The position numbers and the translations under genes are program-made. Of a stretch of DNA of 64,000 nt, positions 6,946-56,337 are shown in pieces. Within the stretch, counting starts at the first letter, position 1, and every line of letters starts with the position of its first letter. Under the pieces are notes generated by a model. It made no database searches, was not told the origin of the DNA, and saw only the letters and a list, made by a program, of their open reading frames with translations. This DNA is from a virus, in IMG/VR virus record IMGVR_UViG_3300027909_000021; one strand, written 5' to 3'.

Positions 6946-7508
6946 GCTGGCGAGCAGAAGTTGACCATTCAACGATTTGGCTTTATCCGGACAACAGCGA
7001 CGAACCATATCGACTTAGTCCCGACGAAGCCTGGGACCTGGGTGACAGTCTGATCATCAGCGCCGGGCAGGTGTGGCAGCAAGACACCGGTCAGCCCTGG
7101 AACCCCGACTGGCCGGCCGCAGTTACCGCCCCCAGTGACCAAGAGTGGCTTGACGAACGGGCCACCGGGGTGCTGTTCACCGACGATCAGCTGTCTGACC
7201 TGCGGACCCTGGCGCAGCAGCGGGGCATGACCGTGGCCCGGATGGTCCGTGAGGAACTACTGGCCAGCTTGGCGTCTTCCACCTGGGGTGACCACGATGT
7301 GACCTCCCGCGACCCCGACGTGGCCCGGTCAGCCGATGTGGATGTTGCCCAAGACGCCGAAGGTGAAGATCGCAATGCCGATACCGATCCAGCCGTTCCA
7401 GAACCGGAACCGGACACCGAGCCCGTCCATGACACACATGGCGGTGGCGATCAAATAAAGGACGATAGCCAGCATCGGCGTTGGGTCCTTCCCGGTGATG
7501 TCCAATGA
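6942..7508 (+). CDS. hypothetical protein with RHH-like segment and acidic tail
   Basis: GTGA overlap at the 5' end and ATGA overlap at the 3' end. LSDLRTLAQQRGMTVARMVREELLASL resembles a ribbon-helix-helix. Confidence 0.6.
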   Translation: MSWRAEVDHSTIWLYPDNSDEPYRLSPDEAWDLGDSLIISAGQVWQQDTGQPWNPDWPAAVTAPSDQEWLDERATGVLFTDDQLSDLRTLAQQRGMTVARMVREELLASLASSTWGDHDVTSRDPDVARSADVDVAQDAEGEDRNADTDPAVPEPEPDTEPVHDTHGGGDQIKDDSQHRRWVLPGDVQ

Positions 7509-7963
7509 GCCCGGGTGTACCCAAGTTCCGGATTGTCGTAACCGGCGACCGACATTGGGGGGAGCCAACCCAGGTGTACAACGCCCTGCGTCATTGCTTG
7601 GCCGAGCAGCAGCAGTTTCTGCTGGGGGTGGGTGACTGTCCCACCGGTGCGGACCTGATGGCCAAGTTGTGGGGGGCGAAGTATCTGCGTTTCCCGGTGA
7701 CTCAGTTCAATGCTGGGTGGGTCTATTGGGACTATCAGGGGCAGCGCGCAGCGGCTGGGCCGATCCGGAACGGATTCATGATCGACATGTTCCGGCCCGC
7801 GCTCGTCCTGGCGTTCATCACCCCGGGGTCACGGGGGACAGTCAACTGCGCCAATTATGCCGAATCTCAGGGGATCGAGGTTCGTAGGTTCTTTGGAAGG
7901 AGGGGGAGAGTCTCTGATGAACCTGGGGGAGTTCCGCAGGAAAACCAAGGACTTGCCCGATGA
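7505..7963 (+). CDS. DUF2493 / YspA-type SLOG domain protein
   Basis: The pattern RIVVTGDRHW...GDCPTGADLMA..W...AGPIRN..M....P.LVLAF..PGSRGT.NC matches the DUF2493 signature recalled from memory. Confidence 0.65.
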   Translation: MSPGVPKFRIVVTGDRHWGEPTQVYNALRHCLAEQQQFLLGVGDCPTGADLMAKLWGAKYLRFPVTQFNAGWVYWDYQGQRAAAGPIRNGFMIDMFRPALVLAFITPGSRGTVNCANYAESQGIEVRRFFGRRGRVSDEPGGVPQENQGLAR

Positions 7964-12651: not shown

Positions 12652-13219
12652 TGGAGTTTGCAAAGACTGCTGGGCCGAGTATCTTCGAGCCCTGGATGAC
12701 GACCCGTTCGCAGTGATGCCCCGGTGGAGGCCCGCACCCGAGCCGGGGCCTCGCTGTGTTACCCACGCACGTGCCGAAAAGGCCCGCCGTAGCGCCCGTA
12801 CACACGCGTTGAAGGTCGAGGCGGGGTTCGGGATACCAGCCGACGTCTACTGGGCTCTGTACGAGTTCCAGGGGGGCCGCTGCGCCATCCTGGGGTGCCG
12901 GGCCACCGGCAAAACCCGACGCCTAGCCGTCGACCATGACCACAAATGCTGCCCAGGCCGGACAAGCTGTGGCAAATGTGTCAGGGGCCTGCTGTGCAAC
13001 CCGCACAACGAGATGTTCGGCCGCAACGGCGACGACCCGAACGTGTTCATGGACATGGCCGACTACCTGCGGTTCCCGGCATACCTGCGATACCTGTGGG
13101 TCCAGCAGGGCCGCGAGGTGCCCACATCTCGGGTACTGCGGGACCTCGCGGCCAAGCAGACCCGGGATTCGTTCGCACTGGAGCGTGGAGATGGGCAAGG
13201 AACGCAGGCACCGGCGTAA
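12638..13219 (+). CDS. recombination endonuclease VII family protein
   Basis: GGRCAILGC....LAVDHDHKCC......CVRGLLCNPHN matches the Endonuclease_7 signature. Confidence 0.8.
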   Translation: MRRPSGVCKDCWAEYLRALDDDPFAVMPRWRPAPEPGPRCVTHARAEKARRSARTHALKVEAGFGIPADVYWALYEFQGGRCAILGCRATGKTRRLAVDHDHKCCPGRTSCGKCVRGLLCNPHNEMFGRNGDDPNVFMDMADYLRFPAYLRYLWVQQGREVPTSRVLRDLAAKQTRDSFALERGDGQGTQAPA

Positions 13220-41083: not shown

Positions 41084-42622
41084 TCACCACCGGGTGAAGT
41101 CGTAACCGACACCCAGGCCCTGATCGTGGCGGTTGTCGTGGCTGTAGACGTACGGATCGACGACCTTGGCCCGTTTACGTTCGTTTAGCATGTGCCACCG
41201 GCAGCCGTGGACCATGCCGTCGAGACGGTCCGGGGATTCCCTGTGCGAGTCCCAGCTGATGAACCCAGTCAACTGGTCTTCGAGGCGCTGGAATCGGCCG
41301 ACGAGATGGAACCGGTGCTGCTGGGAACGCATGGCGACAGGTTCGGCTCGGGTCTTCTTGCCGAGTTTCGCGTCGACTGGTTCCAGCGGTGGACTGGTGT
41401 CCATCGGCGCTTCGCCGAGTTTTTGCAGCTCGATCCATGCGTCGCAGAACACTTGGTGCACCCACGATTTGCCAACGTTCGCCTCGTAGATGACCTTGTG
41501 GGCGCCCCACTTCAACATGACGCGCCAGGCGTGCAGGGCGGCTGGGCGCCCGGCGGCCTGAATGGACTCGTCGGCGAGGACCCACAGATGGTCGTCCACC
41601 GTCCGGGCGACCACTACGACACCCATCTCGTCATGGTTGTCGCCGGATCGTCGCCTGTACGCCGAATCGACCACATTGCCCTGATCGTCTACCTGAGCGG
41701 GGTCCACCCCGACAACGATGGAGATGACCCGCAGATCCGGCGGGATCTGCTCAACCCGAGCCGATTCCAGGTCAGCGGCGGAGAACAGGGCACCGTCTTC
41801 GAGTTCCAAGACTTCGCCGTACAGCTCCTGGCGGCCGATCGCGGTGCCTTCGTAACGCTTCTTCAGCTCCCGGGCGGTGTAGGCGGACAGGGACCGGTTT
41901 TCGAAGGTGGCTCCGCGGGCGATGCGGATGGCGTCGGCGATCTCCAGGTTGTCCGACTGGGACTCGGCGAGGAACCGGCGCAGCAGGGGACTATTGGCCT
42001 TGGGGGTAGTGGTGACAAAGATCCGGGGATGGTCCCCCTCGACGTCCACGCGCAACGCCGGAACGATGCCCTCGTCGTAGGAGGCCATGGCGACCGGCCA
42101 CTTGATGAGTTCGTCCAGCCACGCCGAGGCAAGGTTGTGACCTCGACCAACGTCGGCGTCGTCGGCGCCTTCACAGTGCAGCTTGACCCCGTTGGCGAAC
42201 ATGATCATAGGTCGGGGGCTCTGGCGGTACTTGTAGTCGATGTCGCGCAGCAGGCCGCGGCGGGTCAAGGCGTTCAGAACCCCAGAGTCCCCTTCGACGC
42301 AGATGTTCTTGGCGTCGGCGAGAGTCTCCGCGACGATCAGATGCTCGGTGGGGATACCCCCCTTAGACAGTGGATGCAGGATCGCCCGTTCGACGATCCA
42401 CTCGGCGCCCGCCCGGGTCTTGCCCCAGCCGCGGCCGGCCAGGGCCAGGAAGACGAACCAGTTACCGGGCGGCGGCACCTGCGTCGGCCGTGATTCCCAC
42501 CACCAGGCCCCCCGGACGATTTCCTCCAGGACGTCGGCGTCCAGTGAGTGCAGCCAGGTTTCCCGGTCGGCCTTCGGTAGGCAGGCGAACCGTTCCTTGA
42601 GGCTCATCTTGGTGGTGTCCAT
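41084..42622 (-). CDS. terminase large subunit
   Basis: Walker A GRGWGKTRAG and a C-terminal nuclease-like half. It is the first gene of the late block. Confidence 0.85.
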   Translation of the reverse strand: MDTTKMSLKERFACLPKADRETWLHSLDADVLEEIVRGAWWWESRPTQVPPPGNWFVFLALAGRGWGKTRAGAEWIVERAILHPLSKGGIPTEHLIVAETLADAKNICVEGDSGVLNALTRRGLLRDIDYKYRQSPRPMIMFANGVKLHCEGADDADVGRGHNLASAWLDELIKWPVAMASYDEGIVPALRVDVEGDHPRIFVTTTPKANSPLLRRFLAESQSDNLEIADAIRIARGATFENRSLSAYTARELKKRYEGTAIGRQELYGEVLELEDGALFSAADLESARVEQIPPDLRVISIVVGVDPAQVDDQGNVVDSAYRRRSGDNHDEMGVVVVARTVDDHLWVLADESIQAAGRPAALHAWRVMLKWGAHKVIYEANVGKSWVHQVFCDAWIELQKLGEAPMDTSPPLEPVDAKLGKKTRAEPVAMRSQQHRFHLVGRFQRLEDQLTGFISWDSHRESPDRLDGMVHGCRWHMLNERKRAKVVDPYVYSHDNRHDQGLGVGYDFTRW

Positions 42623-42998: not shown

Positions 42999-43136
42999 GG
43001 TGGTCGGTGCATGGAGGTTCGGTTACTTCAAGCTCTATTGGCAGAGCGTTTCTCTTGTAAAGAAATGGTTCTGGGTTCAAGTCCCAGGAAGATCCGGGAA
43101 ACCGGAAACCCCGCGCCTTGCTCTTCCTCGGCCACC
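42999..43136 (+). ncRNA. Y-RNA-like unit 1 (closing helices plus embedded Thr-like cloverleaf)
   Basis: Helix A is 42999-43006/43129-43136 and helix B is 43015-43022/43111-43118. The loops carry GTGCAT and CTCTTCCT. Inside are a D arm, an anticodon arm (CTTGTAA), a T arm and a GAAA hairpin. Confidence 0.55.
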
Positions 43137-43260
43137 ACTCATGCCCCTGTTGAGTCTTCCTGGCACCAGTTTCTAGAGCTGGACCTCATGGCAGTCCTCG
43201 GCTGAAACCTTCTAGGAGGTGCGCGTCGAATCGCGTGAGGGGCTCGAATACAACTACATA

Positions 43261-43379
43261 CGTTCCAGGTGCATTTGGTTTCGGGTACTTCGCGAGTTCG
43301 ATTCTCGCACCCTCCACCACTTGGGGGGTGGCCCATGGCGGGCAATCTAAATCCCGCGACCGCCTCTTCCTCTGGAACG
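43261..43379 (+). ncRNA. Y-RNA-like unit 2 (YrlA-like permuted tRNA mimic)
   Basis: Helix A is 43261-43268/43372-43379 and helix B is 43277-43285/43353-43361. The T arm is GCGAG-TTCGATT-CTCGC. The acceptor-like hairpin is 43309-43329. Confidence 0.6.
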
Positions 43380-43433
43380 CAAGCTTTCAATCGTCTTCCG
43401 GGACTGATTGACTTTTGAAAACTGAATACGTGC

Positions 43434-43507
43434 GCCCCAGGTGCATAGACTCCGGTTACTTCACTATCACGCTGAGAAAACACCGTGGTCGATTCTTCCT
43501 CTGGGGC
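43434..43507 (+). ncRNA. Y-RNA-like unit 3 (short, no tRNA-like domain)
   Basis: Helix A is 43434-43440/43501-43507 and helix B is 43448-43456/43482-43490. It has the same GTGCAT and TTCTTCCT loops. Confidence 0.55.
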
Positions 43508-43517
43508 TCAAGGCACC

Positions 43518-43665
43518 GTTGCCCGGTGCATTCGACTCCGGTTACTTCAATCCTTTTTGGTAGGGGATGTACCTGGTTCGACTCCAGGCTTGGCCACTCC
43601 TGGCCAAGTAGCTCATCGGATAGAGCGCCTAGAAATACACCGTGGTCACCTCTTCCTCGGGCAAC
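43518..43665 (+). ncRNA. Y-RNA-like unit 4 (YrlA-like permuted tRNA mimic)
   Basis: Helix A is 43518-43525/43658-43665 and helix B is 43534-43542/43639-43647. The T arm is CCTGG-TTCGACT-CCAGG. The acceptor hairpin is CTTGGCC-ACTCCT-GGCCAAG, followed by TA and the D arm GCTC-ATCGGATA-GAGC. Confidence 0.65.
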
Positions 43666-43674
43666 ACACACTTG

Positions 43675-43705
43675 GGCCCCGTCTTTGGACGGGGCCTTTC
43701 TGTTT
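43675..43705 (+). terminator. Intrinsic terminator ending the ncRNA cluster
   Basis: GGCCCCGTC-TTTG-GACGGGGCC followed by TTTCTGTTT. Confidence 0.8.
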
Positions 43706-44221: not shown

Positions 44222-45844
44222 ATGGCAGGCAAGTTCAATAAGCAGAGCAACCTACAGCGCACGAAGCCTTCAACGCCGGTCCGCACGACCTCGGTCGCAC
44301 CGGACACCGTCACCAATGAGGGTGCGGTCGGCTGGTCGCGGGACCCGAAGTCGGAGCTGTTCCTGCTGGGCGTGGCCAACTTCGTCTCCGAGGACACCTT
44401 CTACGAGGACAAACTGCTGCGTGACAAGCGCTACGACATGCTCGTGACGCAGATCGCGGCCAACGATCCGGCGTGGCTGGAGGGCTTCTTCCCGTGGCTG
44501 CGGTTCGAGGCGAACATGCGCTCGGCCCCGGTCATCGGTGCAGCCATCGCGGCCAAGTCCATGCTCGGCACCAAGGCTCCCGGTGGCCGTCGGATCGTCG
44601 CTGGGTCACTGGGTCGCGCGGACGAGCCAGGCGAGTTCCTGGCGTACTGGATCTCGCGGTGGGGTGACAAGCTGCCCAAGCCGGTCAAGCGTGGCCTGGC
44701 CGACGCGATCGTACGGCTCTACACCCAGCGGAACCTGCTCAAGTACGACATCTCGGGTAAGGGTCTGCGGTTCGCCAACGTGATCAACCTGGTGCACCCG
44801 TCCCCGGCTACGCCGGAGCAGCGTGAGCTGTTCAAGTTCGCGCTGGAGCGGGCGTACAAGGACAACGTGGAGATGCCGGAGTCGCTGAAGGTCGCCAAGG
44901 CGGAGAACGCGTTCCGCAAGGAGATCGCGCAGGCGACGTTCGACTGGGATCACTTCTTCGTCCGGACCGACCGGTCCAACGTCCTGAAGGCTGCGGGTCT
45001 GACGTGGCAGGACTTCCTGCCGCGCGTGCCGGAGCGTTATAAGACGGCGGCGTGGGAGACCCTGATCCCGACGATGGGCTTCCAGGCGCTGCTGACGAAC
45101 CTGCGTAACTTCGACGAGGCGGGGATCTCGCCTGCGGCCCGCAAGCTGGTCACCGACCGGCTCTCGGACCCAGACAAGGTCGCCAAGTCGAAGATGTTCC
45201 CGTTCCGGTTCCTGGTGGCGCACCGTAACGTGCGTTCCCTGAACTGGGGTCCGGCGCTGGAGACGGCTCTGGACGCTTCGCTGGCGAACGTGCCAGAGCT
45301 GCCGGGTCGCACGCTGATTCTGGTGGACCGGTCCGGCTCCATGAACTCGACGATCACGTCCACGCCGAACAAAAAGTCTTGGCGTGACGCGGTGGCCGGT
45401 GTCCGGCTGTCGGAGCTGGCGTCGATCTTCGGTTCGGCTCTGGCGCTGCGTAACATCGGCTCGTCCACCCTGGTCGAGTTCGGTGGCACGTCGCGGGAGA
45501 TCCACTTGCGCAAGGGCGATTCGCTGCTGCGTACGGCGAACCAGAAGTTCACCGGCGACATGGGTGGCACGTATCTGGCGATGGCGGCCCGGAGGCACTT
45601 CAAGGGCCACGACCGGGTCATCGTGATCACCGATGAGCAGTACCACGACGGTGCGGCGGGTTCGGTGGTCCCGGCCAACGTCCCGGTCTACACGTTCAAC
45701 CTGGCGGGCTACTCGGCCGCTGGCGGCATCTCGGGTCAGTCCAACCGGCACACCTTCGGTGGCCTGACGGACAAGGCTTTCAAGCTGATCCCGATGCTGG
45801 AGGCGGCACAGTCGCAGCGGTGGCCGTGGGAGACCGAGGAGTAG
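44222..45844 (+). CDS. rsr: Ro60 ortholog: TROVE domain plus vWA domain
   Basis: 540 aa. It has TROVE-like N-terminal repeats, then LLTNLRNF, MFPFRFL, the MIDAS motif LVDRSGSM, GGT and ITDEQ. This is collinear with human Ro60 LLRNLGKM / IHPFHIL / VDVSASM / GGTD / FTDNE. Confidence 0.85.
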   Translation: MAGKFNKQSNLQRTKPSTPVRTTSVAPDTVTNEGAVGWSRDPKSELFLLGVANFVSEDTFYEDKLLRDKRYDMLVTQIAANDPAWLEGFFPWLRFEANMRSAPVIGAAIAAKSMLGTKAPGGRRIVAGSLGRADEPGEFLAYWISRWGDKLPKPVKRGLADAIVRLYTQRNLLKYDISGKGLRFANVINLVHPSPATPEQRELFKFALERAYKDNVEMPESLKVAKAENAFRKEIAQATFDWDHFFVRTDRSNVLKAAGLTWQDFLPRVPERYKTAAWETLIPTMGFQALLTNLRNFDEAGISPAARKLVTDRLSDPDKVAKSKMFPFRFLVAHRNVRSLNWGPALETALDASLANVPELPGRTLILVDRSGSMNSTITSTPNKKSWRDAVAGVRLSELASIFGSALALRNIGSSTLVEFGGTSREIHLRKGDSLLRTANQKFTGDMGGTYLAMAARRHFKGHDRVIVITDEQYHDGAAGSVVPANVPVYTFNLAGYSAAGGISGQSNRHTFGGLTDKAFKLIPMLEAAQSQRWPWETEE

Positions 45845-46394: not shown

Positions 46395-46467
46395 TCGGAC
46401 ATAGCTCAACTGGAAGAGCACCCGTCTCCAAAGCGGGTGGTTGGGGGTTCGAGTCCCTCTGTCCGGG
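46395..46467 (+). tRNA. tRNA-Trp(CCA)
   Basis: 73-nt cloverleaf with anticodon loop CTCCAAA. Strongly resembles E. coli tRNA-Trp in the D and anticodon arms. Confidence 0.85.
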
Positions 46468-46609
46468 CGAGGAAGCCAGGGACGCCTGGTGGAATCAGGT
46501 GGATGAAGGCACCCGATATGTCGTGCTGCGACAGTCGACCAAACAGCGGTGAGGGCAGTGGGGCTAAGACTGTCGACGAGATTCCCGGCCCCCGCCGGAG
46601 TCCACTTCA

Positions 46610-46682
46610 GGGTCCATAGCTCAGACGGAAGAGCGCCCGGTTGAAACCCGGGAGGTCCCAGGTTCGAATCCTGGTGTTCCCA
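46610..46682 (+). tRNA. tRNA-Phe(GAA), acceptor stem with two mismatches
   Basis: Anticodon loop TTGAAAC and T arm CCAGG-TTCGAAT-CCTGG. Acceptor GGGTCCA/TGTTCCC has 4:69 T-T and 5:68 C-T. Confidence 0.6.
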
Positions 46683-46807
46683 CGTAAGGCCAGAGACAGG
46701 TACAACCAGGGGGCGTTAACGCCGACGCTAGACGGCGAAGGACGGCCTTGAGATACGGTCTTGTCGTAAGTAGCCGTACCTGCGCCCCCTGCACCAAACT
46801 GAATCTT

Positions 46808-46890
46808 GGAGAGTGAACCGGGCGGGGCCCGGGGCCGTCTCGAAAACGGTTAGATCCGTAAGGGTTGGGGTTCGAGACCTCCGCTCTCCG
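46808..46890 (+). tRNA. tRNA-Ser(CGA), type II
   Basis: Acceptor GGAGAGT/GCTCTCC, anticodon loop CTCGAAA and a 15-nt variable arm. The D arm is atypical and the T stem has 4 bp. Confidence 0.65.
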
Positions 46891-46895
46891 CGCCA

Positions 46896-46968
46896 GGACC
46901 TGTGGCCAAACGGCAAAGGCGCCCGATCCAAACTCGGGATTTTGGGGGTTCGACTCCCTCCAGGTCTA
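46896..46968 (+). tRNA. type I tRNA with anticodon loop TCCAAAC (C33; reads CAA if numbered canonically)
   Basis: Otherwise a regular 73-nt cloverleaf with A73. Confidence 0.55.
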
Positions 46969-46971
46969 CTT

Positions 46972-47043
46972 GGCTCGATAGCTCAACGGCAGAGCACCAC
47001 CTTGTCAAGGTGGGAGGTGGGGGTTCAAATCCCCTTCGAGTCG
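46972..47043 (+). tRNA. tRNA-Asp(GTC)
   Basis: 72-nt cloverleaf with anticodon loop TTGTCAA. Confidence 0.85.
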
Positions 47044-47143
47044 CGGCGGAGTTAAAGCAGTCGCCACAGGAGTATCCACCTGTGGAAAGAGGCCAAGGGT
47101 CTCGCTATAGGGGGGCCTCTCCCTGAGCCCTGCTCCACCACAT

Positions 47144-47214
47144 TCACCCATAGTGCAACGGCAGCACGGCACGCTCTGGACGTGCAGATCGTGGTTCGAA
47201 TCCATGTGGGTGAG
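47144..47214 (+). tRNA. tRNA-Gln(CTG)
   Basis: 71-nt cloverleaf with a U1-A72 pair and anticodon loop CTCTGGA. Confidence 0.85.
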
Positions 47215-47288
47215 CGCAGCAGATGGCCCCCGTTGGCCCGAGGGGGAGGAAGGCACGCTGTATCGGGCCCTAAAGCAAAGGAGAAGAC

Positions 47289-47456
47289 ATGGCGGCGAAG
47301 CATCGCAAGCCCGGTGACTGGCGGGCCGTTGCCTCCGCCCGCGCCCACGTTCTTCGGATCCTGGTGCGGGGGCACGGACTGACAAACACCCCGGGGATGA
47401 ACGAAACCGGCAGCGCCGCCTACCGGCGGCTGGCGGAAAAGCTGAAGAAGAACTAG
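47289..47456 (+). CDS. small basic protein (55 aa) inside the tRNA array
   Basis: AAAGGAGAAGAC precedes the ATG. Sequence is MAAKHRKPGDWRAVASARAHVLRILVRGHGLTNTPGMNETGSAAYRRLAEKLKKN. Below the track cutoff. Confidence 0.55.
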   Translation: MAAKHRKPGDWRAVASARAHVLRILVRGHGLTNTPGMNETGSAAYRRLAEKLKKN

Positions 47457-47525
47457 CGCGGGCCTTTCGGGGCACCCCAGCGGCGGGACGAGGCCGGATC
47501 ATGCCCGGTAAGTGGAAGCCGCCTT

Positions 47526-47598
47526 TGCTCCATGGCGCAGTTGGCAGCGCAGCTCACTGTTAATGAGATGGTCGCAAGTTCGAATCTTGCTGGAGCAG
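47526..47598 (+). tRNA. tRNA-Asn(GTT)
   Basis: 73-nt cloverleaf with anticodon loop CTGTTAA. Confidence 0.85.
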
Positions 47599-47728
47599 CG
47601 AGATGGAGAGAGTAAGCAAACGTCGTGAGGCGTGCCCGGACCCTAGGGATTGCGAGTCGCTTATGCCTGCCCAGGGGCAGCCCAGCGCTAAGACTCAACC
47701 GGACCTGGGCGACTCTCTTCATCTTGGA

Positions 47729-47801
47729 GCACCTATAGCTCAACTGGAAGAGCAGCTGTCTTACAAGCAGCGGGTTCGAGGTTCGAGTCCTCGTGGGTGT
47801 A
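47729..47801 (+). tRNA. tRNA-Val(TAC)
   Basis: 73-nt cloverleaf with anticodon loop CTTACAA. Confidence 0.85.
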
Positions 47802-47883
47802 CGGCAACGAGGTGGGTCGGGGAGCCTGAAAGCGTCCGGCCGGTCGCCCGTGGAGCGAATCCAAGCCCACCTCGTAGCTGAAT

Positions 47884-47955
47884 GGGTCGGTAGCTCAGAG
47901 GTAGAGCAGGGGACTCTTAATCCCTGTGCCGGGGGTTCGATACCCTCTCGACCCA
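47884..47955 (+). tRNA. tRNA-Lys(CTT)
   Basis: 72-nt cloverleaf with anticodon loop CTCTTAA. Confidence 0.85.
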
Positions 47956-48070
47956 CGGTTCGACACGTTCTTGAAAGGGTGGGTTTCTGCCTAGAGAGTG
48001 TCGTTCAAGGGAGGGGATGGGCGACCCCGGTTAAAGCCAGGGGCAACGTCCAAGTGAACCTCCCGGGCCT

Positions 48071-48144
48071 GTCCTCGTGGCGGAATTGGCATACGCGCTG
48101 GATTCAGAATCCAGTTTCTGGGAGTTCGACTCTCCCCGAGGATA
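48071..48144 (+). tRNA. tRNA-Leu(CAG)-like lacking the long variable arm
   Basis: The D arm and anticodon arm TGGCGGAATTGGCATACGCGCTGGATTCAG closely resemble E. coli tRNA-Leu(CAG), and A73 is present. The variable region is only TTTCT. Confidence 0.65.
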
Positions 48145-48149
48145 CGAAC

Positions 48150-48221
48150 GTGGATGTGGTGTCAACGGCAACACACCTGTCTTCCAAACAGGGGTTCAGG
48201 GTTCGAGTCCCTGCATCCGCA
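48150..48221 (+). tRNA. tRNA-Gly(TCC)
   Basis: 72-nt cloverleaf with anticodon loop CTTCCAA. Confidence 0.85.
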
Positions 48222-48225
48222 CGGA

Positions 48226-48386
48226 AGGGGCGTAGCTCAGTCTGGCTAGAGCAACGGACCCCCACCTGATACGGGGTAGTTGACCGTGGCCGCCTCTGTT
48301 GGACCGAGCGCCGCACGCGGGACGTACGCCGAAAGGCTCCAGGGTGGGGCATCCGCGTGTCGCAGGTTCGAATCCTGCCGCCCCTT
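48226..48386 (+). ncRNA. tRNA-like RNA with a 93-nt insertion in place of the anticodon loop
   Basis: The acceptor AGGGGCG/CGCCCCT, D arm GCTC-AGTCTGGCTA-GAGC and T arm GCAGG-TTCGAAT-CCTGC are all perfect. The anticodon stem ACGGA/TCCGC continues into CCCCACC(48260-48266)/GGTGGGG(48343-48349). Confidence 0.55.
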
Positions 48387-48391
48387 TCTCC

Positions 48392-48464
48392 AGCGTCATG
48401 GCGCAGTGGATAGCGCTCCAGCTTCCGAAGCTGGCGGTCGCGGGTTCGAATCCCGCTGACGCTA
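48392..48464 (+). tRNA. tRNA-Arg(CCG)
   Basis: 73-nt cloverleaf with anticodon loop TTCCGAA. Confidence 0.85.
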
Positions 48465-48465
48465 C

Positions 48466-48544
48466 TAGGGGGAAGGACCTGGTGGTCCGGCCGGTCTGTA
48501 AAACCGGTGCTCGCGCATGGTGGGTTCGATCCCCACTCCCCTAA
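48466..48544 (+). tRNA. tRNA-Tyr(GTA), type II
   Basis: Anticodon loop CTGTAAA, a 12-nt variable arm and T arm GTGGG-TTCGATC-CCCAC. It has a T1-A72 pair and a compact D arm. Confidence 0.7.
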
Positions 48545-48545
48545 C

Positions 48546-48630
48546 GGAGAGGTGCCAGAGCGGCAATGGGACGGGTTGCTAACCCGTAGCCCGGGTGATA
48601 CCGGCGCAGGTTCGATCCCTGCTCTCTCCG
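48546..48630 (+). tRNA. tRNA-Ser(GCT), type II
   Basis: Acceptor GGAGAGG/TCTCTCC, anticodon loop TTGCTAA and a long variable arm. Confidence 0.8.
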
Positions 48631-48633
48631 CAA

Positions 48634-48706
48634 GGCCCTATAGCTCAGCGGATAGAGCAGTGGTTTACGGAACCACGTGCCGCAGGTTCGAATCCTGCTA
48701 GGGTCA
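48634..48706 (+). tRNA. tRNA-Arg(ACG)
   Basis: 73-nt cloverleaf with anticodon loop TTACGGA. Confidence 0.85.
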
Positions 48707-48707
48707 C

Positions 48708-48780
48708 GGCGTCATAGATCAACTGGTAGATCACCTGGTTCTCAGCCAGGAGGGTCGGGGTTCGAGCCCCCGTGACGCTA
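48708..48780 (+). tRNA. tRNA-Glu(CTC)
   Basis: 73-nt cloverleaf with anticodon loop TTCTCAG. Confidence 0.8.
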
Positions 48781-48781
48781 C

Positions 48782-48856
48782 GCCTCCGTAGCTCAGTCTG
48801 GTCAGAGCGGCTGCCTTGTAAGCAGTTGGTCCGGGGTTCGAATCCTCGTGGAGGCC
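48782..48856 (+). tRNA. tRNA-Thr(TGT)
   Basis: 75-nt cloverleaf with anticodon loop CTTGTAA. Confidence 0.85.
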
Positions 48857-48860
48857 CGAA

Positions 48861-48932
48861 GGCCCCGTAGCCGAGTGGTTGAGGCACCAGCCTGCAAAGC
48901 TGGCTACGTCGGTTCAAATCCGGCCGGGGCCT
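48861..48932 (+). tRNA. tRNA-Cys(GCA)
   Basis: 72-nt cloverleaf with anticodon loop CTGCAAA and U73. Confidence 0.85.
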
Positions 48933-48935
48933 CTG

Positions 48936-48999
48936 GGGCCTACACGGTGCCAAGCCCGGATTTGACCGGGTATGGAGGGTTCGATTCCCTCTAGGTCCA
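48936..48999 (+). tRNA. aberrant tRNA-Gln(TTG)-like (64 nt): vestigial D arm, 6- or 8-nt anticodon loop
   Basis: The acceptor GGGCCTA/TAGGTCC and T arm GAGGG-TTCGATT-CCCTC are good. Only ~12 nt lie between the acceptor and the anticodon stem. The anticodon arm is CCCGG-ATTTGA-CCGGG. Confidence 0.45.
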
Positions 49000-49000
49000 C

Positions 49001-49073
49001 GATCCAGTATCCCAATCGGCCGGGGGCGGGACTTTTAATCCCAGGCATGTGGGTTCGAGTCCCACCTGGATCA
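49001..49073 (+). tRNA. tRNA-Lys(TTT)
   Basis: 73-nt cloverleaf with anticodon loop CTTTTAA. Confidence 0.8.
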
Positions 49074-49074
49074 C

Positions 49075-49146
49075 GGAGCCGTGGAGTAATGGCAGCTCAC
49101 CTGCCCTTCAAGCAGGACGGTGCGGGTTCAAATCCCGTCGGCTCTA
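49075..49146 (+). tRNA. tRNA-Glu(TTC) with C33; CCA encoded (49147-49149)
   Basis: 72-nt cloverleaf with anticodon loop CCTTCAA. Confidence 0.75.
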
Positions 49147-49240
49147 CCAGGCGTTAGGTACCGCGGCCCCAGTGGGGTATGGTGGACACGAACAAGGGAG
49201 GCAAGTAACACCAGAGAAAACTTGATCCCGGGAGAAGATC

Positions 49241-49951
49241 ATGGTGAGAGACGCCGACCGCAACCGACAACGGTGGCGGCAACGACGAAACGAATGGGAC
49301 GCCGCGCACCCCATCTGCGCAGACTGCTCAAACACCACCAACCTCAAAGTGGTATGGCGGGGCGAAGGACCCAAACCGTTCCGATCAATGCTGGAAGCGT
49401 TCCGCTGCAACCAAGAATACCGAGACCGGATCCTCGCGCAGTGTGTCAACCTGTGTTACACCTGCTGGCTGGCAACCCGGACCCGCAATCCACACGGCGG
49501 CGGCGCAGCCGGAATCGCCCACTGCAAATGCGCCCCGTGCGTAGACAAGCGCCGAGAGTACAACCGCATCAGCGGGCGCGCACGGCACAAGCGGCTGCAA
49601 GAACGCCGCGAACGGCTCATCGAGAAAGGCGTCGAACCGGGCCCCTACCGCAAGGCCAAGAAGGACCGCAACTCAAACGCCTGGAGCAAGACAGAGCCGG
49701 GACGCGAGTGGCGCCACTCACGGCGACACGACGCGAAACAAGCCTGGCTGGCCGGACGTACCTGCGTCGAGTGCGGTACGGCGGACAAGATCCGCTGTAC
49801 CTGGATCGACCCGCCGGGACCGTTGCCGTCGACTGCACGAATTTGGGCGTGTGGGAAGAAAATGCAGGCGAAATACCTCGAAAAATGTCACACCCTGTGT
49901 GTTTGCTGTCTACGCACGAGGAGCTGGACCACGAGGAGAGAAGGCCAATGA
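49241..49951 (+). CDS. Cys-rich protein with two repeated zinc-binding-like modules (236 aa)
   Basis: GGGAGAAGATC precedes the ATG. The modules C.DC...W..GP.P.....C..LC..C occur twice. Confidence 0.65.
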   Translation: MVRDADRNRQRWRQRRNEWDAAHPICADCSNTTNLKVVWRGEGPKPFRSMLEAFRCNQEYRDRILAQCVNLCYTCWLATRTRNPHGGGAAGIAHCKCAPCVDKRREYNRISGRARHKRLQERRERLIEKGVEPGPYRKAKKDRNSNAWSKTEPGREWRHSRRHDAKQAWLAGRTCVECGTADKIRCTWIDPPGPLPSTARIWACGKKMQAKYLEKCHTLCVCCLRTRSWTTRREGQ

Positions 49952-50949
49952 GCGGCGAGAACTACATCAACCACATCGCGCTGGTACTGGATGCATCCGG
50001 GTCCATGAGCGGGCACCGGCGGTCGGTGATCACCGTCGCCGACAACCTGATGGCGCACCTGGCAAGGCGGTCACAGGAAATGGACCAGGAGACCAGGGTC
50101 ACCGTCTACGTGTTCAGCGACACGGTGAAATGTGCCATCTACGACAAGGACGTGCTGCGTCTGCCGTCGATTGCCACCCTGTACACCGGCGGCGGGATGA
50201 CGGCGCTGATCGACGCCACCGTGCAGTCGATATTGGACCTGGAGCAGACGGCGCAGCTGTACGGCGACCATTCGTTCCTGACGTACGTGCTGACCGACGG
50301 GCAGGAGAACCGCAGCCACAAGTTCAATGCCACCTTGCTGCGGGATCGGCTGGACAGGGCGCCGGAGAACTGGACGTTTGGCGCGTTCGTCCCGGATGCG
50401 CAGGGCGTGTTCGAGGCGAAGCGGTTTGGGTTCCCGGCGGGCAACATCGCCGTGTGGGACACCACGTCGCAGCAGGGTGTAGAAGACGTCGGCAAGCTGA
50501 TCACCGACACCGTCAACAGCTACATGACCGCCCGTGCCTCCGGTATCCGGGGTACCCGCAGCTTGTTCTCCACGGGTGCCGACGCGGTCAACGCGAAGAC
50601 GGTGGCGAAGCTGGCGCCGATGAAGGCGGGCTCGTACTTCTTGGTGCCGGTCCCGAAGGATGCGGTCATCAAGGAGTTCGTGGAGGCGACCGGTAACCAG
50701 TACAGGATCGGCCAGGCGTACTACCAGCTGATGAAGATCGAAACGATCCAGGGCAACAAGGCGCTGGCGGTGGTCGAGAAGGCCACGGCGAAGGTGTTCA
50801 CTGGCACCGGTGTCCGCGGCATGATCGGCCTGTCGGATCTGACGGTGCGGGTGAAGCCGAACCACAACCCGGAGTACGACATCTTCGTTCAGTCGACCAG
50901 CGTCAACCGCAAGTTGATCGCGGGCACGAAGGTGTTGATCCTGCCATGA
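49948..50949 (+). CDS. von Willebrand factor A (vWA) domain protein (333 aa)
   Basis: ATGA-coupled start. MIDAS motif LDASGSM ... GGMTAL ... LTDGQEN. The first ~830 nt of track ORF 49120-50949 are spurious. Confidence 0.8.
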   Translation: MSGENYINHIALVLDASGSMSGHRRSVITVADNLMAHLARRSQEMDQETRVTVYVFSDTVKCAIYDKDVLRLPSIATLYTGGGMTALIDATVQSILDLEQTAQLYGDHSFLTYVLTDGQENRSHKFNATLLRDRLDRAPENWTFGAFVPDAQGVFEAKRFGFPAGNIAVWDTTSQQGVEDVGKLITDTVNSYMTARASGIRGTRSLFSTGADAVNAKTVAKLAPMKAGSYFLVPVPKDAVIKEFVEATGNQYRIGQAYYQLMKIETIQGNKALAVVEKATAKVFTGTGVRGMIGLSDLTVRVKPNHNPEYDIFVQSTSVNRKLIAGTKVLILP

Positions 50950-56151: not shown

Positions 56152-56337
56152 TTACTGGTCGAACTGACCGTCTTTGATCGCGGCGATGAACGTGGCCCAC
56201 TCATCCCGACTGAACCAGATGACATCGGCGGGCATGTGGCTGTTACGTACGCCGACGTGCTCGGCTTCGCTGCGCGGGTCGAAAGCCACCTCGACACATT
56301 CGCCGGCGGAACACCCCGTCGGCTTGATCCAGTTCAT
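56152..56337 (-). CDS. DUF397 domain protein
   Basis: CSAGECVEVAF......VGVRNS......FSRDEWATFIAAIKDGQFD is a clear DUF397 pattern. Confidence 0.75.
   Translation of the reverse strand: MNWIKPTGCSAGECVEVAFDPRSEAEHVGVRNSHMPADVIWFSRDEWATFIAAIKDGQFDQ

What the first reader, a model, noticed from the sequence alone, without database searches (positions are those of the whole stretch)
48226..48386. tRNA-like gene whose anticodon loop is replaced by a 93-nt structured insertion
The acceptor stem (7 bp), D arm and T arm are textbook. After the 5-bp anticodon stem (ACGGA/TCCGC, 27:43 mismatch), the RNA continues into a further helix, CCCCACC at 48260-48266 pairing with GGTGGGG at 48343-48349, plus TG/CA. 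This helix encloses about 70 more nucleotides. The insertion is far too short for a group I intron, and no bulge-helix-bulge motif is evident. It could be an intron-containing tRNA of an unknown kind or a dedicated tRNA-shaped decoy or scaffold. It sits in the middle of otherwise tightly packed tRNA genes.
Basis: seen in the sequence. Interest (0 to 1): 0.7.

Follow-up and report, generated by a model that had tools for sequence, protein, structure and literature searches.

The report
tRNA-shaped RNA in Ro60 locus
A phage gene encodes a perfectly formed tRNA body whose anticodon loop is replaced by a 92-base structured arm; it lies in the same gene cluster as the phage's Ro60 protein and its Y RNAs, so it is most likely a non-decoding tRNA mimic that works with Ro60 rather than a tRNA with an intron.

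Summary
Window 48226-48386 (+) matches the Rfam tRNA model (43.4 bits, E 5e-8), with 92 nt where the anticodon loop should be.

No splicing solution gives a credible anticodon loop, and no intron or ribozyme family matches.

The context points elsewhere. A Ro60/TROVE gene lies 2.4 kb upstream on the same strand, with no terminator in between. Four Y-RNA-like genes lie just before it.

Elsewhere I found tRNA-shaped genes with an open acceptor stem and a hairpin replacing the anticodon loop, next to Ro60 genes:
- 15 gut/rumen-type sequences with strong covariation.
- L240, which has the finding's acceptor stem and sits 145 nt from a TROVE gene.

Published YrlA Y RNAs are circularly permuted tRNA mimics. 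These are the unpermuted form, which I did not find described.

My best reading (0.45) is a native-topology Y-RNA-like partner of the phage Ro60. Membership is unproven:
- Two covariance models do not single out the insert.
- Its similarity to the phage's own Y RNAs is at chance level.
- The only close relative lacks the gene.

Rivals are a Ro-independent tRNA-scaffold RNA, a disrupted tRNA, and an intron.

The parts
48226..48232 (+). Acceptor stem, 5' strand (AGGGGCG)
   Evidence: Pairs 7/7 with 48379-48385. Rfam tRNA alignment.
48235..48252 (+). D arm (GCTC / AGTCTGGCTA / GAGC)
   Evidence: Rfam tRNA alignment. G18G19, A14 and G15 are present.
48254..48258 (+). Anticodon-like stem, 5' strand (ACGGA). 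Pairs with 48352-48356 (TCCGC), with an A:C mismatch at 27:43.
   Evidence: Pair probability is about 0.6 in the ensemble.
48260..48267 (+). Extension helix, 5' strand (CCCCACCT). Pairs with 48342-48349 (GGGTGGGG).
Evidence: Present in the MFE structure. Pair probability about 0.6.
48268..48341 (+). Apical domain of the insert (74 nt). Its internal fold is unresolved.
   Evidence: Alternative folds were compared. No homolog is available for covariation.
48328..48335 (+). GCCGAAAG, a match to the published YrlA Ro60-site motif GNCGAAN0-1G. It lies on the strand that leads into the T arm.
   Evidence: Motif from PMC4201824. Rfam YrlA consensus acggCgaAUGCuuggGgaa. In the MFE structure, CCG (48329-31) is helical and AAAGGCUCCA (48332-41) is a 10-nt loop. 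My own estimate of the chance of such a match in the insert is about 0.04-0.07.
48342..48349 (+). Extension helix, 3' strand (GGGTGGGG). It contains the GGUG word also seen in the same position in L240, L160, L238 and at the 5' ends of the window's Y RNAs.
48352..48361 (+). Anticodon-like stem, 3' strand (TCCGC), followed by the variable loop (GTGTC)
48362..48378 (+). T arm (GCAGG / TTCGAAT / CCTGC)
48379..48386 (+). Acceptor stem, 3' strand (CGCCCCT), followed by discriminator T. No CCA is encoded.
44222..45844 (+). Ro60/Rsr ortholog (TROVE domain, 540 aa). Proposed protein partner.
   Evidence: Pfam TROVE, E 4.4e-16. 45-48% identical to 'Ro-like RNA binding protein' of Streptomyces phages.
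42999..43662 (+). Cluster of four Y-RNA-like genes: Y1 42999-43136, Y2 43265-43375, Y3 43435-43506, Y4 43521-43662
   Evidence: Rfam YrlA hit 43565-43629 at 33 bits. Shared motifs. Conserved in L003. Ro-stem pairs are 100% paired, with 5 covarying pairs.
43674..43697 (+). Terminator-like hairpin after Y4. No terminator-like site lies between the Ro60 gene and the end of the tRNA array.
46395..49149 (+). tRNA array downstream of Ro60 in which the element is embedded
   Evidence: ARAGORN of its 22 tRNAs here.

Best explanation
48226-48386 encodes a non-decoding, tRNA-shaped small RNA that most likely serves as a Y-RNA-type partner of the phage Ro60 protein.

Shown:
- The gene has a complete tRNA core: a 7-bp acceptor stem, D and T arms, and all tertiary-contact positions.
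- It has no anticodon loop. The anticodon-like stem continues into a 7-9 bp G/C helix and a 74-nt apical domain.
- It lies on the same strand as a Ro60 gene, 2.4 kb downstream, with no terminator-like site between them. It is packed 4-5 nt from ordinary tRNAs.

Inferred:
- It is transcribed with the Ro60-tRNA unit.
- It is cut out by RNase P and the 3' tRNA-processing enzymes like its neighbours, and receives CCA.
- It folds into the tRNA L-shape.
- Its long arm docks on the outer surface of the Ro60 ring. The arm has a helix, an unpaired GCCGAAAG-containing loop and a GGUG-containing G-rich strand, in the same order as in the YrlA consensus.
- The tRNA-like body then plays the role it has in YrlA: a nuclease-resistant module that recruits tRNA-binding factors or an exoribonuclease to Ro60.

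Known YrlA RNAs are circularly permuted tRNA mimics, with the ends in the Ro stem and the acceptor stem closed by a loop. This RNA would be the unpermuted form, with true tRNA ends and the Ro module capping the anticodon stem.
For: 1. Structure: Rfam tRNA at 43.4 bits with a 92-nt insert; canonical core.

2. Context:
- TROVE/Ro60 gene at 44222-45844.
- Four Y-RNA-like genes at 42999-43662, one matching Rfam YrlA.
- No terminator-like site between Ro60 and the array.

3. Native-topology, tRNA-shaped genes whose anticodon loop is replaced by a hairpin exist next to Ro60 genes. These hairpins carry Y-RNA motifs in permuted order: pyrimidine tract, then capping loop, then GGUG.., then UUACUU.
- I found 15 sequences from L075, L134, L137, L141, L143 and L144.
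- 97.7% of cells are paired, 12 pairs have compensatory changes, and 6 of 7 acceptor pairs covary. 0/500 shuffles reach the observed score.
- TROVE domains are confirmed in the four neighbouring genes tested, in L075, L134, L137 and L141. Those of L143 and L144 are tblastn relatives of the window's Ro60 only.
- Rfam sees these sequences only as tRNAs with an insert.

4. A search with a pattern taken from the tRNA body alone retrieved L240.
- It has the same acceptor stem, the same A1:U72 pair and the same discriminator U as the finding.
- It has a 7-bp helix with a GGUGAGG strand where the finding has GGUGGGG.
- It sits 145 nt upstream of a TROVE gene (E 9.7e-46), between two other Y-like RNAs, with no tRNA array nearby.

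5. The same search retrieved L238.
- Its tRNA body matches the finding at 10 of 13 positions in the 3' part (variable loop, T arm, acceptor 3' strand) that the pattern did not fix.
- Its insert carries the repeat motif of the neighbouring small RNAs.

6. GCCGAAAG at 48328-35 matches the published Ro-site motif GNCGAAN0-1G (PMC4201824). It lies on the T-arm-proximal strand. The MFE structure places it as helix, then loop, then G-rich helix, as in the Rfam YrlA consensus.

7. Published precedent: M. smegmatis YrlA is opened by RNase P at its acceptor hairpin and receives CCA. The YrlA authors raised the possibility of processing towards canonical tRNA form.
Against: 1. A covariance model of this phage's own Ro-binding module, rebuilt in permuted order, does not hit the insert at E <= 10. 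It also misses L240, so it is a narrow model.

2. A model of the 15 gut/rumen-type RNAs scores the element at 36.6 bits. That is no better than ordinary tRNAs of the array, which reach 45.7 bits.

3. An unbiased BLAST of the insert against the rest of the window finds only chance-level matches. The 13/15 match to the Y4 3' strand that first impressed me is not above noise.

4. Insert-to-insert similarity is weak: p = 0.88 against L240 and only p about 0.05 against L160.

5. The only close relative (L003/L067, Ro60 76% identical) keeps Y1-Y4 but has no ortholog of this gene.

6. The insert lacks the GGUGCAU and UUACUUC motifs of the phage's own Y RNAs.

7. The fold is not more stable than shuffles, z = -0.89.

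8. Similar insert-bearing tRNA-shaped genes also occur where no Ro60 gene was detected:
- L158, L160 and L239, within 5-12 kb.
- The GiJojo-type family, which is present in about 13 Streptomyces phage records without a Ro60 hit.
Confidence: 0.45

Rival explanations
1. A tRNA-scaffolded noncoding RNA with a function that does not involve Ro60. Examples would be a decoy or sponge for host tRNA-targeting nucleases or tRNA-modifying and processing enzymes, or a regulatory hairpin stabilised and processed through a tRNA body.
For: - Insert-bearing tRNA-shaped genes occur in phage contigs where no Ro60 gene lies within the 5-12 kb held: L158, L160, L239.
- The GiJojo-type family is conserved in 21 Streptomyces phage records, and about 13 of them have no Ro60 hit.
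- The finding's insert does not match any Y-RNA model.
Against: - The gene sits in a Ro60/Y RNA cluster.
- A pattern taken from the tRNA body alone retrieved 10 distinct insert-bearing viral elements. Of these, L240 lies within about 1.5 kb of a confirmed TROVE gene and L238 within about 1.5 kb of a weaker Ro-like vWA gene. Only 90 of 50,697 phage records hold a Ro60 relative.
- Without an anticodon loop it is a poor mimic for anticodon nucleases.
Confidence: 0.25
2. A tRNA gene disrupted by insertion of a foreign hairpin or small mobile element (possibly a tRNA-Trp-like paralog). It would be a recent pseudogene with no function of its own.
For: - It is absent from the sister phage L003.
- The insert is bounded by 9-nt inverted repeats, CCCCACCTG and CAGGGTGGGG.
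- The insert shows no significant similarity to anything.
- The fold is not more stable than shuffles.
- The tRNA body is closest to tRNA-Trp, and the array already has a tRNA-Trp.
Against: - The tRNA core is intact at every conserved position, and the acceptor pairs 7/7.
- There is no target-site duplication.
- There is no second copy of the insert in the window, in 146 related loci or in viral contigs (21-mer search).
- The same architecture recurs in independent phages: anticodon-like stem, then a G/C helix with a GGUG strand, then an apical domain.
Confidence: 0.17
3. An intron-containing tRNA. The 84-92 nt would be removed, by an unknown endonuclease plus an RNA ligase or by self-splicing, to give a decoding tRNA such as the tRNA-Pro(GGG) proposed by ARAGORN.
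For: - ARAGORN in intron mode calls 48225-48388 as tRNA-Pro(ggg) with an 84-nt intron.
- Related Streptomyces phages carry RNA ligase genes next to their tRNA arrays.
- Archaeal tRNA-Trp genes with a similar body carry 60-70-nt introns.
Against: - The ARAGORN solution needs a shifted stem with a C:A mismatch and a non-canonical splice position. The same run makes many false calls on tandem tRNAs.
- The acceptor (A1:U72) and discriminator U do not fit the tRNA-Pro identity set (own knowledge).
- There is no bulge-helix-bulge motif.
- The insert is too short for a group I intron, and no intron or self-cleaving ribozyme family matches at E <= 10.
- No RNA ligase or splicing endonuclease was found among 20 window proteins scanned.
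- The Ro-adjacent analogs clearly keep their inserts as conserved, covarying structure.
Confidence: 0.08

Closest known systems
YrlA (Y RNA-like A; Rfam RF02553). Bacterial and phage Y RNAs bound by Ro60/Rsr (Chen et al. 2014, PMC4201824; Wang et al. 2018, bioRxiv 10.1101/312249).
   Same: - Encoded within 4 kb of a Ro60 gene.
- Contains a tRNA-like module with D arm, T arm and acceptor stem joined to a long stem at the position of the anticodon stem.
- Has a GNCGAAN0-1G match on the strand that leads into the T arm.
- In M. smegmatis, YrlA is even opened by RNase P and receives CCA.
   Different: - Known YrlA RNAs run 5' Ro-stem strand, T arm, closed acceptor hairpin, D arm, 3' Ro-stem strand. 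They are circularly permuted tRNAs with their ends in the Ro stem.
- Here the order is that of a real tRNA, with free acceptor ends, and the putative Ro module is a closed hairpin.
- The Rfam model does not match the element.
- The insert lacks the motifs of this phage's own YrlA-like RNAs.
Native-topology tRNA-shaped RNAs next to Ro60 genes, found here (L075, L134, L137, L141, L143, L144, L240/L244, probably L235). I did not find them described in the papers searched.
   Same: - Full acceptor stem with free ends.
- D and T arms.
- Anticodon loop replaced by a hairpin.
- Located within about 3.5 kb of a TROVE gene, often inside a tRNA array.
- L240 shares the finding's acceptor stem and discriminator, and has a GGUGRGG helix.
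   Different: - Those RNAs carry recognisable Y-RNA motifs (UUACUU, GGUGRCG, a pyrimidine tract, a GNRA or short cap) and covary.
- The finding's insert is longer (92 nt against 45-70 nt).
- It has no UUACUU motif.
- It is not picked out by the model built from them.
D. radiodurans Yrn1-type Y RNA
   Same: It is a Ro60 partner with tRNA-like features. The window's Y1 (42999-43136) has this arrangement: D arm, anticodon arm and T arm, with the Ro stem replacing the acceptor stem.
   Different: In Yrn1 the Ro-binding stem is formed by the RNA ends and replaces the acceptor stem. In the finding the acceptor stem is a normal tRNA acceptor stem.
Intron-containing tRNAs (archaeal bulge-helix-bulge introns; bacterial group I introns in anticodon loops)
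   Same: A tRNA gene interrupted at the anticodon loop. Archaeal tRNA-Trp genes with a GGGGCGTAGCTCAG body turned up in the same pattern search.
   Different: - No bulge-helix-bulge motif.
- No anticodon can be recovered.
- 92 nt is far below group I intron size.
- No Rfam intron match.
- The context is a bacterial-type actinophage.
GiJojo-type tRNA-shaped RNA of Streptomyces phages
   Same: - A tRNA body with about 97 extra nucleotides between the D and T arms.
- Located in tRNA arrays of the phages whose Ro60 is closest to the window's.
- Contains CCGAAUGGCUU, compared with the finding's CCGAAAGGCUC and the Rfam YrlA consensus CgaAUGCuu.
   Different: - It keeps a separate 4-5 bp anticodon-like stem with a conserved 10-nt loop, and puts the extra domain in the variable-arm position.
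- Its insert similarity to the finding is not significant (p = 0.64).
- It is also present in phages without a Ro60 hit.

Membership tests
tRNA (RF00005) | Cloverleaf core: 7-bp acceptor stem, D arm, T arm and conserved tertiary positions | tested here: met
   Rfam tRNA 43.4 bits, against a gathering threshold of 29, model positions 1-71. Core positions read from the sequence.
tRNA (RF00005) | 7-nt anticodon loop with U33, an anticodon and a purine at position 37 (decoding capacity) | tested here: not met
   92 nt replace the loop. No credible loop can be rebuilt. The ARAGORN intron solution is forced.
YrlA (RF02553) | Encoded within 4 kb of a Ro60/TROVE gene (criterion of Chen et al. 2014) | tested here: met
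   TROVE gene 44222-45844. The element starts 2.4 kb downstream on the same strand.
YrlA (RF02553) | tRNA-like module with T arm, acceptor stem and D arm | tested here: met
YrlA (RF02553) | Permuted order (T arm, closed acceptor hairpin, D arm), with the RNA ends forming the Ro-binding stem, and a match to the family model | tested here: not met
   - The order is that of a native tRNA.
- The only Rfam YrlA hit touching the element is 48193-48252 (21.7 bits), which joins the T arm of tRNA-Gly to the element's D arm; Chen et al. discarded such tandem-tRNA hits as false positives.
YrlA (RF02553) | GNCGAAN0-1G Ro-site motif on the strand 5' of the T arm, in a helix-loop-helix setting | tested here: inconclusive
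   - GCCGAAAG lies at 48328-35.
- The MFE structure gives helix, then a 10-nt loop, then a G-rich helix.
- The motif is short (chance about 0.04-0.07, my estimate), and the fold is not supported by covariation.
YrlA (RF02553) | Binds Ro60/Rsr | not testable with these tools
   Needs pull-down or gel shift.
This phage's own Y RNAs (Y1-Y4) | - 5' motif GGUGCAU..
- 8-bp helix with a conserved pyrimidine-pyrimidine mismatch
- UUACUUC
- 3' CUCUUCCUC tract | tested here: not met
   - Model R1 of the module in permuted order does not hit the insert at E <= 10.
- Similarity to the Y4 3' strand is at chance level.
Native-topology Ro-associated tRNA-shaped RNAs (gut/rumen type, alignment A6) | Hairpin with pyrimidine tract, cap, GGUGRCG and UUACUU motifs between the D and T arms | tested here: not met
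   Model R2 scores the element at 36.6 bits. Ordinary tRNAs of the array score up to 45.7 bits.
Archaeal/eukaryal tRNA intron | Bulge-helix-bulge motif (two 3-nt bulges separated by a 4-bp helix) at the exon-intron junctions | tested here: not met
   The junction is a 1x2 internal loop followed by a 7-bp helix.
Group I intron in a tRNA | A ribozyme core of about 200 nt or more, and a match to the Rfam group I intron model | tested here: not met
   The insert is 92 nt. No intron or ribozyme family matches at E <= 10.
MITE / small mobile insertion | Terminal inverted repeats, a target-site duplication and multiple copies | tested here: not met
   - 9-nt inverted arms exist.
- There is no duplication at the flanks.
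- No second copy was found in the window, in the related loci or in viral contigs.

The most novel reading that the evidence does not exclude
Ro60-associated Y RNAs also exist in unpermuted, true-tRNA topology, and this phage gene is one of them. It would be cut out by RNase P and tRNA 3'-end enzymes, CCA-tailed, and would carry its Ro60-binding module as a cap on the anticodon stem.

Such RNAs would be the missing link between tRNAs and the circularly permuted YrlA family. The tandem YrlA array of L226 has ACCA-containing acceptor loops, which suggests how RNase P processing could interconvert the two forms. Such RNAs could physically couple Ro60 to the tRNA-handling machinery of the infected cell.
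Probability: 0.4. Interest if true: 0.75.

Novelty: new variant of a known kind. Interest (0 to 1): 0.6.

Why it matters
Bacterial and phage Y RNAs of the YrlA type are described as circularly permuted tRNA mimics. How they arose from tRNAs, and what the tRNA-like module does, are open questions (PMC4201824; bioRxiv 10.1101/312249).

A Ro60 partner with native tRNA topology would give the following:
- A natural intermediate between tRNAs and YrlA.
- A form that must pass through RNase P, RNase Z and the CCA-adding enzyme, so the question of whether a Y RNA can be aminoacylated or reach the ribosome becomes testable.
- A search image for Y RNAs in the many Ro60-encoding genomes where the permuted model finds nothing.

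For phage biology, it would tie the widespread tRNA arrays of large actinophages to an RNA quality-control or decay machine that the phage brings along.

There is also a practical point. These genes are invisible to default tRNA finders and to Rfam gathering-threshold scans, and they are currently unannotated or mis-annotated in deposited phage genomes.

Tried and rejected
1. The 15-mer ACCGTGGYCRCCTCT, shared exactly by the Y4 3' strand and the insert, was my first argument for a permuted Y RNA. It is rejected as post hoc. The true identity is 13/15, and an unbiased BLAST shows equal or better chance matches elsewhere in the window.

2. Pairing ACCGUGGCC with GGCUCCAG as the Ro helix is energetically poor: -56.5 against -72 kcal/mol, with pair probability 0.

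3. Model R1 (the phage's own Ro module, permuted) gives no hit on the insert and none on L240, so the model is too narrow.

4. Model R2 (gut/rumen type) does not discriminate the element from tRNAs.

5. Searches for orthologs all failed to find one:
- blastn against phages
- Ro60-based locus searches in viral and metagenome contigs
- a search with the downstream vWA protein
- an exact 21-mer search
- nhmmer and blastn of the insert against 146 loci

6. L043 and L226 at first looked like native-topology elements. They are tandem canonical YrlAs whose similar acceptor stems cross-pair, so I do not count them.

7. L072 is likewise probably chimeric.

8. Homology with the GiJojo-type family, via the shared CCGAAWGGCU, is not significant (p = 0.64).

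9. The window's vWA protein (49120-50949) is not related to the L238 vWA protein.

10. No RNA ligase or RtcB was found among 20 window proteins scanned.

11. The review PMC10870794 could not be read.
Full report
**Observation**

- A 7/7 Watson-Crick acceptor stem: AGGGGCG 48226-32 with CGCCCCT 48379-85.
- U8 and A9.
- A D arm at 48235-52 with G18G19.
- A 5-nt variable loop, GTGTC.
- A T arm at 48362-78 with loop TTCGAAT.
- Discriminator T at 48386.

After the D arm, ACGGA (48254-58) pairs with TCCGC (48352-56), with an A:C mismatch at 27:43. Inside this stem, CCCCACC (48260-66) pairs with GGTGGGG (48343-49). That helix can extend by TG/CA with a bulged G, and it encloses 71 nt.

The Rfam tRNA model aligns the whole stretch at 43.4 bits (E 4.7e-8), with 92 nt in place of six loop positions. 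ARAGORN in default mode and Rfam with default filters both miss it.

It lies 4 nt after tRNA-Gly and 5 nt before tRNA-Arg in an array of 22 tRNAs.

The minimum-free-energy fold keeps the tRNA arms, the anticodon-like stem and the G/C helix. It is not more stable than shuffled sequence: -72 kcal/mol, z = -0.89.

**Context**

The window is a GC-rich (62%) tailed-phage segment, with a terminase at 41084-42622 and a primase/D5 helicase at 56334-59087.

The ORF at 44222-45844, on the same strand, is a Ro60/Rsr ortholog.
- Pfam TROVE, E 4.4e-16.
- 45-48% identical to the 'Ro-like RNA binding protein' of Streptomyces phages BRock, GiJojo and LuckySocke, where it also sits inside tRNA arrays.

Upstream of Ro60 lie four Y-RNA-like genes: Y1 42999-43136, Y2 43265-43375, Y3 43435-43506, Y4 43521-43662.
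- They share the 5' motif GGUGCAU..CGGUUACUUC and a 3' pyrimidine tract.
- Y4 matches Rfam YrlA at 33 bits in its tRNA-like part.
- They are conserved in the one close relative, L003.
- Their Ro-stem pairs are 100% paired, with five covarying pairs.
- A strong terminator-like hairpin follows Y4.

No terminator-like site lies between the Ro60 gene and the end of the tRNA array. The element is therefore plausibly co-transcribed with Ro60.

**What is known**

Chen et al. 2014 (PMC4201824) report the following:
- YrlA RNAs are encoded within a few kb of Ro60 in more than 250 bacteria and phages.
- They contain a tRNA-like module.
- They carry a GNCGAAN0-1G motif at the putative Ro site.
- In M. 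smegmatis, YrlA is cut by RNase P in the acceptor hairpin and receives CCA.

Wang et al. 2018 (bioRxiv 10.1101/312249) add:
- They may derive from dimeric tRNA transcripts.

I found no description of unpermuted forms in the searchable library. One review could not be read.

**A class of native-topology, Ro-associated tRNA-shaped RNAs**

I scanned 146 Ro60-centred loci with ARAGORN in intron mode and with my own strict scanner. The scanner required a T arm, 7/7 acceptor pairing and a D arm.

Both found single genes with full tRNA ends whose anticodon loop is replaced by a hairpin. The hairpin carries Y-RNA motifs in permuted order: helix strand, pyrimidine tract, short cap (often GCAA), GGUGRCG, helix strand, UUACUU, then the T arm.

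Fifteen such sequences come from L075, L134, L137, L141, L143 and L144. They align with 97.7% of cells paired and 12 pairs with compensatory changes. Six of seven acceptor pairs covary, and 0/500 shuffles reach the observed score.

The neighbouring genes tested, in L075, L134, L137 and L141, are TROVE proteins. Those of L143 and L144 are known only as tblastn relatives of the window's Ro60. Rfam sees these RNAs only as tRNAs with inserts and finds no YrlA in L141.

The tetraloop cap makes the topology unambiguous. L043 and L226 are different. They turned out to be tandem canonical YrlAs whose similar acceptor stems cross-pair, and I do not count them.

**Relatives of the finding's scaffold**

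I searched with a pattern built from the tRNA body only: GGGGYGTAGCTCA, then a gap of 69-161 nt (three scans), then GGTTCRANTCCNNYCRCCCC. It retrieved ten distinct insert-bearing tRNA-shaped genes from viral contigs. From genomes it retrieved mostly tandem tRNAs and archaeal tRNA-Trp introns.

L240/L244 has these features:
- The same acceptor stem, the same A1:U72 pair and the same discriminator U as the finding.
- The arrangement D arm, [CCGC], CCUCGUU, [CCUCGCC], 14-nt loop, [GGUGAGG], C, [GCGG], UUAUCGA, hairpin, T arm.
- A position 145 nt upstream of a TROVE gene (E 9.7e-46), between two other Y-like RNAs, with no tRNA array around it.

By position, its [CCGC/GCGG] helix corresponds to the finding's anticodon-like stem. 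Its [CCUCGCC/GGUGAGG] helix corresponds to CCCCACC/GGUGGGG. Its 14-nt loop corresponds to the finding's 74-nt apical domain.

L238 has these features:
- A body that matches the finding at 10 of 13 positions in the 3' part (variable loop, T arm, acceptor 3' strand) left free by the pattern. This includes the variable loop GUGUC and the T stem.
- An insert that carries the repeat motif of the neighbouring small RNAs.
- A neighbouring DUF2828/DUF7788 vWA protein, which my Ro60 HMM hits weakly at E 2.9e-7.

L160 comes from a phage that shares 70% nucleotide identity with a structural gene of the window. Its insert aligns collinearly with the finding's at p about 0.05. The alignment includes a hairpin with a CACGCG loop and CCGGAAGCUCAGGUGG against the finding's CCGAAAGGCUCCAGGGUGG.

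**Tests of membership for the finding itself**

The negative results are as follows:
- A covariance model of the phage's own Ro module, rebuilt in permuted order (R1), hits the Y3-Y4 junction at 63 bits. It does not hit the insert at E <= 10. It also misses L240, so it is narrow.
- A model of the 15 gut/rumen-type RNAs (R2) scores the element at 36.6 bits. That is within the range of ordinary tRNAs of the array, which reach 45.7 bits.
- An unbiased BLAST of the insert against the rest of the window gives only chance-level matches. My early '15-mer shared with Y4' argument was therefore post hoc, and I withdraw it.
- Insert similarity to L240 is not significant, p = 0.88.
- The sister phage L003 (Ro60 76% identical) keeps Y1-Y4. 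Its array ends after tRNA-Leu(cag), and it has other odd T-arm RNAs instead of this gene.

The supportive but soft points are as follows:
- GCCGAAAG at 48328-35 fits the published GNCGAAN0-1G motif.
- The motif lies on the strand that runs into the T arm.
- In the unconstrained MFE structure, its CCG (48329-31) is helical and AAAGGCUCCA (48332-41) forms a 10-nt loop, followed by the G-rich strand of the 8-bp helix.
- That is the same order as in the Rfam YrlA consensus (acggCga-AUGCu-uggGgaa).

**Alternatives**

Intron:
- No credible anticodon loop can be recovered.
- ARAGORN's tRNA-Pro(GGG) with an 84-nt intron is forced.
- There is no bulge-helix-bulge motif.
- No intron or ribozyme family matches at E <= 10.
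- No ligase or endonuclease was found among 20 window proteins scanned.

Mobile insertion or pseudogene:
- Inverted 9-nt arms exist.
- There is no target duplication and no second copy anywhere searched.
- The tRNA core is flawless.

Ro-independent scaffold RNA:
- This is a serious alternative.
- L158, L160 and L239 have no Ro60 gene in the DNA held.
- A separate, well-conserved 'GiJojo-type' tRNA-shaped family occurs in 21 Streptomyces phage records, about 13 of which lack a Ro60 hit. This family has 18 covarying pairs.

**Verdict**

The element is a real, tRNA-shaped, non-decoding gene.

The best-supported explanation (0.45) is that it is a Y-RNA-like partner of the phage Ro60 in native tRNA topology, which would be a new variant of the YrlA kind. 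The existence of such a variant next to Ro60 genes is well supported by covariation in other loci. The finding's own membership rests on context, scaffold relatedness to L240 and L238, and short motifs, and it failed two model-based tests.

The remaining probability is split as follows:
- a Ro-independent tRNA-scaffold RNA, 0.25
- a disrupted tRNA, 0.17
- an intron-containing tRNA, 0.08

Noticed in passing
window 42999-43662: Four Y-RNA-like genes lie upstream of the Ro60 gene and are conserved in L003 (8866-9560).
- Y1 has D arm, anticodon arm and T arm in tRNA order, with the Ro stem replacing the acceptor stem (Yrn1-like).
- Y3 has no tRNA-like part.
- Y4 has the canonical YrlA order.
- Their Ro helix keeps a conserved pyrimidine-pyrimidine mismatch.
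   Followed up: partly
window 48009-48066 (and L003 about 12866-12922): A conserved hairpin of about 60 nt (GGGAGG..CCUCCC enclosing two nested helices) lies in the spacer between tRNA-Lys(ctt) and tRNA-Leu(cag). It shows one compensatory pair between the two phages. It may be another small structured RNA or a processing signal.
   Followed up: partly
L002 5172-5326 (Streptomyces phage GiJojo); L148-L153; L029 6814-6969: A conserved, unannotated tRNA-shaped RNA occurs in 21 Streptomyces phage records.
- It has an acceptor stem, D arm and T arm.
- It has a covarying 4-bp anticodon-like stem with the loop AAAAACGGAG.
- It has a domain of about 80 nt in the variable-arm position, containing the invariant GCACCGAAUGGCU and GGGUCUGUAGGGAAGCGCG.
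- Rfam sees only a tRNA with a 97-nt insert.
- In LuckySocke a hypothetical CDS is annotated over it.
   Followed up: partly
L002 7763-7837 (PP725410.1 9796-9870): The annotated 'tRNA-Arg(cct)' of phage GiJojo starts CGAUGCGUAGCUGGGGAGUUACUUC. This is the 5' motif of the neighbouring YrlA-like RNAs. It is probably a Y RNA mis-called as a tRNA.
   Followed up: no
L001 10073-10236 (Streptomyces phage BRock): A manA-RNA-motif-like hit (49.7 bits, below the 55.2-bit threshold, E 5.6e-10) lies between the two tRNA-Lys genes. There are also 81-nt hits to the tmRNA model at L001 14097-14177 and L002 14992-15072.
   Followed up: no
L003 13095-13232 and 13238-13336: Where the window has tRNA-Gly and the finding, the sister phage has two other T-arm-bearing structured RNAs. 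One of them is a mini tRNA-like RNA with only an acceptor stem, a T arm and one hairpin.
   Followed up: partly
L226 (Gammaproteobacteria MAG SZUA-467), reverse strand about 7000-7700: Tandem canonical YrlAs lie downstream of a Ro60 gene. Their 7-bp acceptor hairpins are closed by ACCAAUG, which encodes a discriminator plus CCA. RNase P cuts at these hairpins would release native-topology units made of the halves of two neighbouring YrlAs. This is a possible route between the two topologies.
   Followed up: partly
L238 6571-6692 (-) and flanks: This AT-rich phage contig has a tRNA-shaped RNA whose body is nearly identical to the finding's. It is surrounded by small RNAs that share the motif CAGCAAUUUUA, next to a DUF2828/DUF7788 vWA protein.
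   Followed up: partly
L063 17727-17829: A tRNA gene with a 33-nt insertion in the D loop and an encoded CCA end.
   Followed up: no
window 49120-50949: The first ORF after the tRNA array is a 609-aa protein with only a weak vWA/MIDAS match (E 8e-4). It is not related to the Ro60 vWA domain or to the L238 protein.
   Followed up: partly
window 43273-43319: Y2 contains a T arm followed by CCCUCCACCA, which the Rfam tmRNA model picks up (27 bits, E 4e-8). It is a tmRNA-like 3' end inside a Y-RNA-like gene.
   Followed up: no
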